NCBI GenBank assembly: GCA_964016885.1
Contig: OZ024742.1
Span: 261,888,001-261,952,000, forward strand
DNA from: Eledone cirrhosa
Taxonomy: Eukaryota
Length of the DNA stretch: 64,000 nucleotides
Direction: 5' to 3'
This document shows positions 36,201 through 39,200 of the stretch, piece after piece (the first letter of the stretch is position 1; each line of letters begins with the position of its first letter). The notes under the pieces were generated by a model. It was not told the origin of the DNA. It saw only the letters and a list, made by a program, of their open reading frames with translations, and did not search any database. The translations under genes and the position numbers were made by a program.

Positions 36201-39200
36201 CATCTATCTTGATAACAGAGCAGCCAACCACAGCAGGGTAAACTATGAGGTGTGGCGCATCTTCAGCTACTCGACAAAGCAGATCTGACACACTTTGACG
36301 GACATAGGATTCAGGGTGGCTGAGGCGAGAAAACAACTGTGGAATAATACCTGTAAAACAGGAGAAAAACAAGAACTGATCATGTTGATAATGATGATGG
36401 TTTACAGAGGAAAAAATACAGGAAGTAATGCTTTCATAATGTGTGTGTGTACACACAGACACATATATATATATATATATAATCATCAGCGTTTAATGTT
36501 TATTTTTCATGCTTGAATGAGAAAGAAAGGTTGTCATGTTATGAGACTAGTCAGGTCAGATGACCATGCCTTGCTCAAACTATATATATTTTTGGCTTGG
36601 TTTTTATGGCTGGATAGTGTTCCTAATGCCAACCACATTACAGTGTATGCATGTCAAAAAAGAAAAAAAAAAACAAATATATATATATATATATAATTGG
36701 ATATATGAGAGGGATGAACACAGATATAAGTATACATGTGTTCCAATTGCAAATGACCAAGTTAGCTAGGTTGAAAAATACTAATTTAAAACAATATGGT
36801 TTGCCCGACTCATTTTTATTGATTTATTACTTTAAATCAAGAAACCTATATCGGGCAATAGCCTTTGATACCCGGACAGATCTAAATCTGTTTCGCAAGA
36901 ATTATTAAGTGAAAGCCAGAATTCCTGTGCTCATCTGCGGGTATCCAGGAAAATTTGTACCTTTCACTTCAAAGGATCTAAGAAGACTGAACGATATGCT
37001 GATATAAACGCACATGTCGCAGCGCCTAGCACGTCTCATACTCATGCTGCTAAAAATAGCAGCTGGGTTTATGAGACTAAGGTTAGCTCTACATATGGAG
37101 CCGAGAATATCATAGATTGAGTTATAAACATCGGACTAGCCGGTCATTAAGATTGGTAATGACCGCCCCGTTCCGATCACGGATCGTCTCGCTGATACCC
37201 GTACTGCTTCGGCTGGCCCGCTTCCCCAGTTGGTAGAGCTTGCGCGAGTTACCACAGGCTGCTGCCCTCTCCGTCTGCTCCGCAAATTCGTGCCAGTGTG
37301 CATTCCGATCGGCCTGAATAGCCCGAGATGTGCGACGTCGTGCATTCCGATCGGCCTGAATAGCCCGAGATGTGCGACGTCGGAGATCTCGAAGATTGGG
37401 TGCACCCTCGAGTCGGGCCACTCTCGCTCTCTCCGCGAGTTCAAGAGTGCCGCCAGAGATCCAGTCCCGATGGCGTCTTTGGGTCGATCCGAGATGCTCT
37501 CTGGCCACCTCAACCGTCGCCGCCCTGAGCGCGTTCCACTCCTGCTCCGGTTGCTGTTCCACTTCGTTACTCAGCATTTGAAATCGGTTCCGCAGCTCTA
37601 GCCGGAAAGCATTTCCAGCATCGAGCTTGAGTCGCGAGATGTCAATCCTTTTCTGGCGGTTGGGAGGAGGTTTCGCCCGCAGCCGCAGACGAAGGGTTGC
37701 TCGAACAAGAGTATGGTCTGACCCATGCTCACTGCCCGTATCAGCCCCTCCATACGCACGCAAGTCCATCACTGAGCTGGCTCACCGAGATCTGACCAGG
37801 ATGTAGTCAATTTGATTGGCCGTTCTTCCGTCATTGGATCACCACGTGACGAGGTGACGCCGAGGATGTTGGAACCGGGTGTTGGTGACGACAAGATGAT
37901 TGGCATCCGCGAAGGACACGAGCCGTTCACCATTGTCACAGTGTACGCCTAGGGCGAAGCATCCTAGAATATGCCGTGTTGTATCATCAGCCGGCCCCGC
38001 CCGCGCATTCCAGTCCCCAGCGACAATGAGAACATCACTGGAAGGACGCCATCCACGGTTGTTTGGAGATCGGCATAGAACTGCGTCTTGTCCGCCTCGT
38101 CCACATTGAGTGTGGGAGCGTAGACAGCAATTACACTGACATTGGAGATTTGACCCTTCAATCAAACCAGTGCGAGTCGGTGTGAGATCGGCTGCCACGC
38201 CAGCAGAGCCGCTTGCGCGTCGGGGCTGAGCGCTACAGCGGCCCTGTGAAGGCCACTGTTGTCAGTCACGCCACTATGGTACAAGTGGTAGGAGATATCC
38301 TTGCCAGGAACTTTGATCGGAAGATAACCAACATCGGGAAGTCGAACTTCTGAAAGGCAAGCGACACTAACGCAGTACCTGTGCAGAGCCTTCATTGTAA
38401 GTGCCTGTACACCGTCGTCACGAAGTGTTCGGATTTTCCAGCACGCCACCCTCAATTCCTTCCTTCGTCTGAAGAGCGGAACTACTGCGAGAGTAGTCTG
38501 TAGAGCCATAGCGATACTCAGACAAACCTAAATCTGTTTCGCAAAAATTAATAAGTGAAAGCCAGAATTCCTGTGCTCATCTGCGGGTATCCATGAAAAT
38601 TCGTACCTTCCACTTCAAAGAATCTAAGAAGTCCGAACGATATACTGATATAAACGCACATGTCTCAGCGCCCAGTGCATCTCATACTCATGCCACAGAT
38701 GAGCACAGGAATTCTGGCTTTCAGTGAATAATTCTCGCGAAACAGATTTAGTTCTGTCCGGGTATCAAAGGCTATTGCCCAATATAGGTTTGTTATTTTT
38801 ATTGATTTATTACTTTAAATCGAGTCAGGTAAACCATATTGTTTTAAATTAGTATTTTTTCAACCTAGCTAACTTGGTCATTTGCAATTGGAGCACATGG
38901 ATACTTATATCTGTGTTCATCCCTCTCATATATCCAATTATATTACATGGCTCGGAAAGATTCCCTTCTTTGAGCTATTTAATTGTAAAAGACTATTTTG
39001 AGTTTATAACTCAATCTATGATATATATATATATATATTTACAGGTGAAGAGCAATATGATCAACTAAAAATTCCTTGGATAGGGTGCACTAGCATGGCC
39101 ACAGATGAATGATAAACCAGTAAAAGATGAAAAGCATAATCCATTCATGAAATTCAAGTTGATGTTTCTTATGAATGTATCTATGTGTGTGAGTGTGTGA

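What the first reader, a model, noticed from the sequence alone, without database searches (positions are those of the whole stretch)
36691..39024. Hammerhead-ribozyme-flanked element carrying a LINE endonuclease inside an SMG1 intron
Seen: two 181-bp direct repeats about 90% identical (36867-37047, 38513-38693). Each folds on the minus strand into a type I hammerhead with 8-bp stem I GATACCCG/CGGGTATC, a core, stem II, GAAA, 6-bp stem III and a GUC cut site. They bracket 1.4 kb of GC-rich RTE APE sequence lacking RT. The unit is enclosed by roughly 250-bp inverted arms, the right one holding a third, inverted hammerhead, and sits between two (TA)n tracts. Known: type I hammerheads occur in Penelope pseudo-LTRs (direct plus inverted copies) and in retrozymes, whose tandem hammerheads release RNAs that circularise. 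RTE LINEs are usually associated with HDV-like or twister ribozymes instead. Inference: this is a non-autonomous retrozyme/pLTR vehicle that captured a foreign LINE gene fragment. Double cleavage would release a 1646-nt RNA (38520 to 36875) that could circularise and be mobilised in trans by a Penelope RT.
Basis: partly seen in the sequence, partly recalled or inferred. Interest (0 to 1): 0.9.

Follow-up and report, generated by a model that had tools for sequence, protein, structure and literature searches.

The report
One-off retrozyme–LINE chimera, mutant hammerheads
This 2.3-kb insert in an SMG1 intron is a single-copy patchwork of a common 0.5-kb hammerhead-bearing jumping repeat and a scrap of an unrelated LINE, likely joined by accident during copying; the repeat family is the more interesting part, because nearly all of its roughly thousand hammerhead motifs carry a core change that is predicted to weaken self-cutting.

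Summary
The anatomy is real, but this is not a cargo vehicle. The arms and direct repeats are pieces of a ~497-nt tandem monomer (family A; 987 hammerhead-motif matches in the genome). Its copies sit in (TA)n, end at two fixed points (129 of 142 outer ends) and often carry an inverted arm (54 of 88 loci), the layout of Penelope-type insertions. The 1.39-kb middle is an internal piece of a high-copy APE-RT LINE, broken by frameshifts. Both junctions occur once in the genome, and 0 of 167 fetched family loci match that LINE. All three hammerheads read CAGAUGA, not CUGAUGA (U4A). Copy 2 also has a damaged stem I and copy 3 lacks its 5' stem I strand, so a 1646-nt circle is unlikely. [quoted passage not shown] The newer point: U4A is family-wide (132 of 144 copies) and basal in the family tree, while the rest of the fold stays paired and three sister families keep U4 with compensatory stem changes. 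That makes a natural test of whether hammerhead cleavage matters for Penelope-driven mobility.

The parts
36676..36696 (.). (TA)n target tract, left; overlaps the first bases of the element
   Evidence: 99 of 142 outer ends in the family are TA-flanked
36691..37129 (-). Left arm: monomer positions 1-439 of retrozyme family A; 36691 is one of the two fixed 3' ends; holds a private 30-bp micro-inversion at 36812-36841
36867..36945 (-). Hammerhead 1: type I, all stems intact, core CAGAUGA (U4A), GUC site, predicted cut after 36875
37129..38516 (-). Internal piece of a ~3.4-kb APE-RT LINE (RTE-like), from just before the ATG to just before RT; frameshifted; contains a perfect 42-bp tandem duplication at 37298-37381
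38513..38693 (-). Second direct repeat: monomer positions 177-357, more decayed than the other parts; holds hammerhead 2 (U4A, one mismatch and one wobble in stem I, predicted cut after 38521)
38693..39024 (+). Right, inverted arm: monomer positions 250 to 1, then the 81-nt tail (497 to 417); ends at the second fixed 3' end; holds truncated hammerhead 3 without its 5' stem I strand
38944..39024 (+). 81-nt tail between the two fixed ends; its GGCTC...GAGC hairpin stem is present in all four related families (candidate RT-binding signal, inferred)
39021..39038 (.). (TA)n target tract, right
36351..39205 (-). Host SMG1 intron (2855 nt) between exons matching human SMG1 residues 1776-1822 and 1819-1879

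Best explanation
The insert is a single-copy chimera of a ~497-nt hammerhead-bearing repeat (family A) and an internal LINE fragment, likely made in one Penelope-type insertion during which the reverse transcriptase jumped templates. Inferred steps: a Penelope RT/GIY-YIG protein supplied in trans nicks both strands of a (TA)n tract and starts cDNA on each strand at one of the two fixed internal start points of the repeat RNA. The left cDNA copies 439 nt, straight through the uncut ribozyme site. It then jumps to RNA carrying the LINE piece and a more decayed repeat copy (one chimeric read-through RNA, or two jumps), and is joined to the right cDNA, which gives the inverted arm. Shown: the parts, their families, their orientation and the uniqueness of the junctions. 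The product has not spread and is probably inert: cleavage by its U4A hammerheads is predicted to be weak, and family A appears to amplify without needing efficient cleavage. I put 'one-off by-product, not a vehicle' at about 0.9 and this particular route at about 0.55-0.6.
For: Family layout: 129 of 142 outer ends at two fixed points, 54 of 88 position-sampled loci with an inverted arm, 99 of 142 ends TA-flanked (maps). This matches the in vitro behaviour of an Anolis Penelope protein: both strands cut and extended, two internal start sites that define the tail, AT-rich targets, hammerhead mutants still inserted (PMC11167929). The LINE piece has the same sense as the repeat RNA and lacks its 5' UTR, RT and 3' end, and there is no target duplication around it. 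Junctions share only 1 to a few bases. Arms and LINE piece are of similar age (2.5-3.5%, 1.9-2.5% and 1.7% non-CpG divergence), while the second direct repeat is at 7-7.6%, which points to a different template. Junctions unique. The genome holds many GIY-YIG Penelope-like ORFs (10,596 candidates, 150 scored), one with a 938-aa RT+GIY-YIG frame and a (TA)n-flanked end. [quoted passage not shown]
Against: No source locus for the joined LINE + decayed repeat was found, so the route needs a lost source or two jumps. No autonomous Penelope element sharing sequence with the monomer was found among 50 GIY-YIG loci, so the partner enzyme is unidentified. None of the 88 sampled family loci shows comparable long foreign cargo other than SINE-like inserts, so such jumps are rare. 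The excess decay of the second repeat is unusual but not unique: 4 of 107 segments, itself included, have as many rare alleles. Short microhomologies fit a later insertion plus deletion equally well.
Confidence: 0.58

Rival explanations
1. Nested insertion plus deletion: a 1.7-mer of the repeat with an inverted arm was here first, a 5'-truncated LINE inserted at monomer position 177 of the second unit, and a later deletion of about 2.5 kb removed the LINE's RT and 3' end together with 234 nt of repeat.
For: A locus with the needed starting layout exists (L048: 1-497, 1-384, inverted 281-1 plus tail). SINE-like elements nest in 5 of 88 family loci. The right junction looks like a LINE 5' truncation with microhomology. 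The LINE piece is the least diverged part (1.7%). Some genomic copies of this LINE are rearranged (L005, L011, L014).
Against: Needs two extra events. Does not by itself explain why the second direct repeat is more decayed than the first. The TA-free left junction shares about one base.
Confidence: 0.28
2. One reading: the two hammerheads cut the SMG1 intron RNA, release a 1646-nt piece that circularises, and a Penelope RT mobilises it as a cargo-bearing retrozyme.
For: Both hammerheads lie on the transcribed strand of SMG1, 1646 nt apart. The left one folds well (z -2.4). Family A keeps its fold under apparent selection, so some activity is possible.
Against: Single copy. U4A in both cores; single mutants in the CUGA turn showed low activity in a deep scan of one type III hammerhead (PMC9901934). 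The upstream copy's active fold is 11.7 kcal/mol above its best fold. The predicted circle would contain neither fixed start point 1 nor the tail hairpin (it holds monomer positions 177-439 only).
Confidence: 0.06
3. DNA-level repair: a break inside a palindromic repeat copy was patched by copying a LINE and a neighbouring decayed repeat copy from elsewhere in the genome.
For: Palindromic, TA-flanked inserts are break-prone (general knowledge). The left arm has a private 30-bp inversion and the LINE piece a 42-bp duplication, signs of local repair.
Against: No donor with the joined sequence in the assembly. All left-side pieces share RNA sense, which this model does not predict (a one-in-two coincidence for the LINE piece).
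Confidence: 0.08

Closest known systems
Non-LTR retrozymes of animals (PMC7229834; bioRxiv 10.64898/2026.07.22.740005)
   Same: Non-coding monomer with one type I hammerhead, low GC, dispersed and partly tandem copies, co-occurrence with Penelope-like elements.
   Different: Monomer 497 nt (170-400 nt in PMC7229834, 51-972 in the preprint); mostly 1-2 units with inverted arms; 6-bp stem III; U4A core in 132 of 144 copies; circular RNA and cleavage untested; this copy holds a LINE fragment.
Penelope pLTR-flanked cargo in Adineta vaga (NRPS gene and other captured sequences; PMC3846280)
   Same: Foreign sequence between two direct and one inverted terminal repeat, with a tail on one arm, and no Penelope coding sequence.
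   Different: Cargo here is a broken LINE piece; the two direct repeats differ in age and extent; the target is (TA)n, so no duplication can be read; no empty site was checked.
Endonuclease-bearing Penelope-like element insertions with tail and inverted pLTR (PMC8557442; Anolis PAc, PMC11167929)
   Same: Two fixed 3' ends, tandem and inverted units, AT-rich or (TA)n targets, hammerhead read through uncut.
   Different: Tail is 81 nt, not 30-40; no copy was found attached to an RT ORF; partner element not identified.
Natural hammerhead core variants (U3-A8, U4C, A6C and others; PMC3088659, PMC4209133)
   Same: A conserved core position changed while the fold is kept.
   Different: U4A is not named in the passages I read; here it is the majority state of a whole high-copy family.

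Membership tests
Type I hammerhead ribozyme | Three-stem junction with stem I open, supported by covariation | tested here: met
   5 of 12 pairs change on both sides among 6 related sequences, 100% of cells paired, slid controls 14-52%; a fourth family has another compensatory stem I. Related sequences, so not a probability.
Type I hammerhead ribozyme | Core CUGANGA ... GAAA ... UH | tested here: not met
   U4 is A in all three window copies and 132 of 144 family segments; other core positions conserved. Met in sister family B, 68 of 68.
Type I hammerhead ribozyme | Self-cleavage | not testable with these tools
   Needs an in vitro assay.
Non-LTR retrozyme | Non-coding monomer in dispersed and tandem copies, one hammerhead per unit | tested here: met
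   497-nt monomer with tandem wraps; 987 motif matches. Holds for the family, not for the 2.3-kb composite.
Non-LTR retrozyme | Two consecutive complete, active hammerheads that release a unit-length RNA | tested here: not met
   In the window no copy has a canonical core, and only one has intact stems.
Non-LTR retrozyme | Circular RNA in vivo | not testable with these tools
   No RNA holder listed.
Penelope-like element insertion (non-autonomous) | Tandem and inverted terminal units, tail between two fixed ends, AT-rich target | tested here: met
   129 of 142 ends at two points; 54 of 88 inverted; 99 of 142 TA-flanked.
Penelope-like element insertion (non-autonomous) | Sequence shared with the pLTR of an autonomous element | tested here: inconclusive
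   Matches in 6 of 50 GIY-YIG loci are separate neighbouring inserts; none is a pLTR. Only 50 of 150 listed loci were fetched.
Propagating cargo vehicle | More than one copy of the repeat-cargo unit | tested here: not met
   1 match for each junction at up to 2 mismatches; 0 of 167 loci match the LINE.
RTE-clade LINE (cargo) | Single APE-RT frame, short 5' UTR, no ORF1 | tested here: met
   About 3.4-kb copies with about 400 nt before the ATG; PF14529 and PF00078 over cut-off; hits named craniofacial development protein 2, a label I recall as typical of RTE endonucleases.
RTE-clade LINE (cargo) | RT phylogeny places it in the RTE clade | not tested
   No tree built.

The most novel reading that the evidence does not exclude
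Family A's U4A hammerhead is a working natural core variant, probably helped by the Penelope protein. It has been kept by selection through successive master lineages, so hundreds of copies, this one in the SMG1 pre-mRNA included, can cut host transcripts, and the same enzyme occasionally packages LINE pieces between them.
Probability: 0.2. Interest if true: 0.65.

Novelty: new variant of a known kind. Interest (0 to 1): 0.36.

Why it matters
The composite itself matters little: it is one dead insertion of a published type. The family gives a clean test of an open question, namely what the hammerhead does for Penelope-type mobility. In one genome, family A spread with a core change expected to weaken cleavage yet kept the fold, and young sister family B (97-99% identical copies) kept the canonical core. 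If A does not cleave, this is in-genome support for the in vitro result that cleavage is dispensable and that the fold serves another role. If it does cleave, U4A joins the natural core variants, and motif searches that demand CUGANGA are missing whole families.

Tried and rejected
Rfam: no hammerhead hit in the window or in canonical-core relatives; uninformative. Sequencing runs: no RNA holder listed. Three contig runs of one sample were laid; no listed piece spans a junction or an empty site, so they settle nothing. Search for a source locus of the right junction: none. Idea that the second repeat belongs to a distinct subfamily: rejected, at most 5 of its 18 differences are shared by any of 138 segments. 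Idea that its excess changes are A-to-I editing: rejected by inspection, mixed spectrum with only 3 sense A-to-G changes. Idea that the cargo is a short non-autonomous LINE with its own ends: rejected, other copies run on at both ends. Literature: searches for hammerhead + CAGAUGA, hammerhead + core variant/U4A, octopus + hammerhead + Penelope, Penelope + template switch + pLTR and retrozyme + chimeric + LINE listed nothing describing this family or a U4A family. The library lacks most subscription papers and I opened no supplements, which may list such variants (Figures S6-S7 of PMC3088659, the supplement of PMC7229834). Earlier scan notes: none for this genome or sequence.

Full report
Observation. 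The two 181-nt direct repeats (36867-37047, 38513-38693; 90%; spacing 1646), the inverted arms and the (TA)n tracts are present. The flanking exons match human SMG1 residues 1776-1822 and 1819-1879 on the minus strand (a further exon). The element fills 2334 of the 2855 nt of that intron, and the two direct hammerheads lie on the transcribed strand. The host is probably an octopod: the LINE's closest named relatives by identity are Octopus vulgaris proteins at 82-86%. All three cores are CAGAUGA, with A at the conserved U4. The second copy has a mismatch and a wobble in stem I, and its hammerhead fold costs 11.7 kcal/mol over the best fold, against 3.0 for the first. The third copy is cut by the inversion junction and has no native 5' strand of stem I.

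The cargo. A search with the whole unit gave 3180 candidates, 40 scored; apart from the window itself, all match only the middle 1.39 kb at 86-93%. In most of 19 fetched loci the sequence runs on into a 5' UTR and towards RT. Five longer copies show a ~3.4-kb element with APE and RT frames. The cargo is therefore an internal piece of a common LINE, from just before the ATG to just before RT, frameshifted in the window. The RTE label rests on layout and on hit names; I built no RT tree. Each junction has exactly one match in the 3-Gb genome at up to 2 mismatches, reversed control 0. None of 167 fetched family loci (some overlapping) matches this LINE. The composite has not spread.

The vehicle. 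The 439-nt left arm gave 2308 candidates, 40 scored at 89-93%. Maps of the loci show a ~497-nt monomer that wraps in tandem. A 25-nt hammerhead pattern has 190 exact matches and 987 at up to 2 mismatches. In 88 loci taken from that list by position, 54 carry an inverted arm, 129 of 142 outer ends fall at monomer position 1 or 417, and 99 of 142 abut (TA)n. Twelve internal gaps over 25 nt were seen: five are 183-368-nt SINE-like inserts (label recalled), several with flanking duplications, and seven are 65 nt or less. The window follows the family plan: left end at position 1, right end at 417, head-to-head inversion at 38693. This is the layout described for Penelope-like insertions (PMC8557442, passages). 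It matches the biochemistry of the Anolis element, which cuts and extends both strands, starts at two internal sites that define the tail, prefers AT-rich DNA and inserts equally well with hammerhead mutants (PMC11167929, main text read). Penelope-like ORFs are abundant here (RT+GIY-YIG frame of 938 aa), but none of 50 fetched loci has a pLTR related to the monomer, so the partner is inferred, not found. A 2026 preprint argues that animal retrozymes are non-autonomous Penelope derivatives (10.64898/2026.07.22.740005, main text read); only 1 of its 9 tested dimers cleaved.

The hammerhead is genuine but altered. Three sister families were found: B (547-nt monomer, copies 96-99% alike), C (L084) and D (L130), at 65-76% to A or to each other. 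Stem I reads GATACCCG/CGGGTATC in A, GGTGCTTG/CAAGCACC in B, GGTACCTG/CAGGTACC in C and GATGTTTA/TAAACATC in D. On six sequences, 5 of 12 pairs change on both sides and all cells pair, far above slid controls (related sequences). Family B has U4 in 68 of 68 matches. Family A has A4 in 97 of the first 100 listed matches, with both letters allowed, and in 132 of 144 aligned segments. In a tree of 108 rows rooted on B, C and D, the basal A lineages carry A4 and the 7 U4 rows are nested inside, so U4A preceded the family's spread. That tree is ladder-like with many short branches, 31 of 105 forks are open, and recombination between templates is not modelled. Between five lineage groups, 13 of 78 hammerhead columns differ, the same density as overall (61 of 369). 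The differences fall on N7, loops, distal stem II and one compensatory pair in stem III. None falls in the 22 paired or core columns of the 3' half, which the search pattern did not fix (hand estimate p about 0.02). Stem III shrank from about 75 to 30 to 14 nt and stayed paired. So the fold looks maintained after U4A. Published data predict low activity: single mutants in the CUGA turn were weak in a deep scan of one type III hammerhead (PMC9901934, passages), though a U4C viroid variant stays infectious (PMC3088659, section 8 and passages). Penelope hammerheads are often slow alone (PMC4209133, Results read).

How the chimera arose. Against column majorities at non-CpG sites, the LINE piece differs at 18 of 1089, the right arm at 6-8 of about 313, the left arm at 10-14 of about 400 (inflated by a private 30-bp inversion), the first repeat at 0-2 of about 156 and the second at 11-12 of about 156. 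The second repeat is more decayed than the first (p=0.011), the right arm (p=0.014) and the LINE (p=0.0001), and its changes are private. It ranks second lowest of 107 in nearest-neighbour identity, though three other segments have as many rare alleles. The direct repeats are thus not a duplicated pair; the second likely came from another, older template. The junctions share one to a few bases, and the LINE has the same sense as the repeat RNA. The simplest reading is a template jump during one two-sided insertion (0.58). A nested LINE insertion followed by a deletion remains open (0.28), since a locus with the required starting layout exists (L048). No source locus was found. [quoted passage not shown]

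The 1646-nt circle. The coordinates are right, but it needs both U4A ribozymes to cut, one of them damaged. The circle would also lack both the position-1 start and the tail hairpin shared by families A-D, so it would be a poor template (inference). Active retrozymes make circles from tandem canonical hammerheads (PMC7229834, Results and Discussion read). No RNA holder was listed, so expression is untested.

Verdict. The locus is a one-off by-product of a known type. The family is a new variant of a known kind: a Penelope-type retrozyme of about a thousand motif copies with a family-wide U4A core, which my searches did not find described. Interest 0.36.

Noticed in passing
L140:1271-2732, L129:3472-4091 and 68 motif matches: Young sister retrozyme family B: 547-nt monomer, copies 96-99% alike, canonical CUGAGGA core, about 75-nt stem III, tandem dimers and trimers; the best candidate here for active circles.
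   Followed up: partly
L084:1-555, L190, L130:4901-5357: Two more sister families (C, D) with canonical cores and compensatory stem I; D has a GUA cleavage triplet.
   Followed up: partly
L112 (G000:C1:145869000-145878900): Near-full-length Penelope-like element (938-aa frame, pLTRs over 1 kb at 98%, ends in (TA)n). By eye its pLTR holds a minimal hammerhead with the U3-A8 core variant and a palindromic stem III.
   Followed up: partly
L084, L102, L109, L129, L130: Family A-D copies often sit in (TA)n tracts right beside what look like the 3' ends of Penelope-like elements, suggesting shared targets.
   Followed up: partly
L048:1177-1767: Tandem units within one insertion carry different subfamily markers (CAGAAGA against CAGATGA), a sign of template change within one event.
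   Followed up: partly
L070, L073, L170, L180, L181: A ~185-nt SINE-like repeat is inserted at different positions inside family A copies, once as a tandem pair.
   Followed up: no
window 36812-36841 and 37298-37381: A private 30-bp micro-inversion in the left arm and a perfect 42-bp tandem duplication in the LINE piece.
   Followed up: partly
window 25722-28593 (minus): A second LINE with long APE and RT frames (536 and 480 aa; looks CR1/L2-like, label recalled) in another intron, with a related 3' fragment at about 48250-48960.
   Followed up: no
L138, L156, L159: Short tandem stutters (for example GATACTATTAATTGT repeats) at inversion junctions of family B, as if the RT slipped repeatedly.
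   Followed up: no
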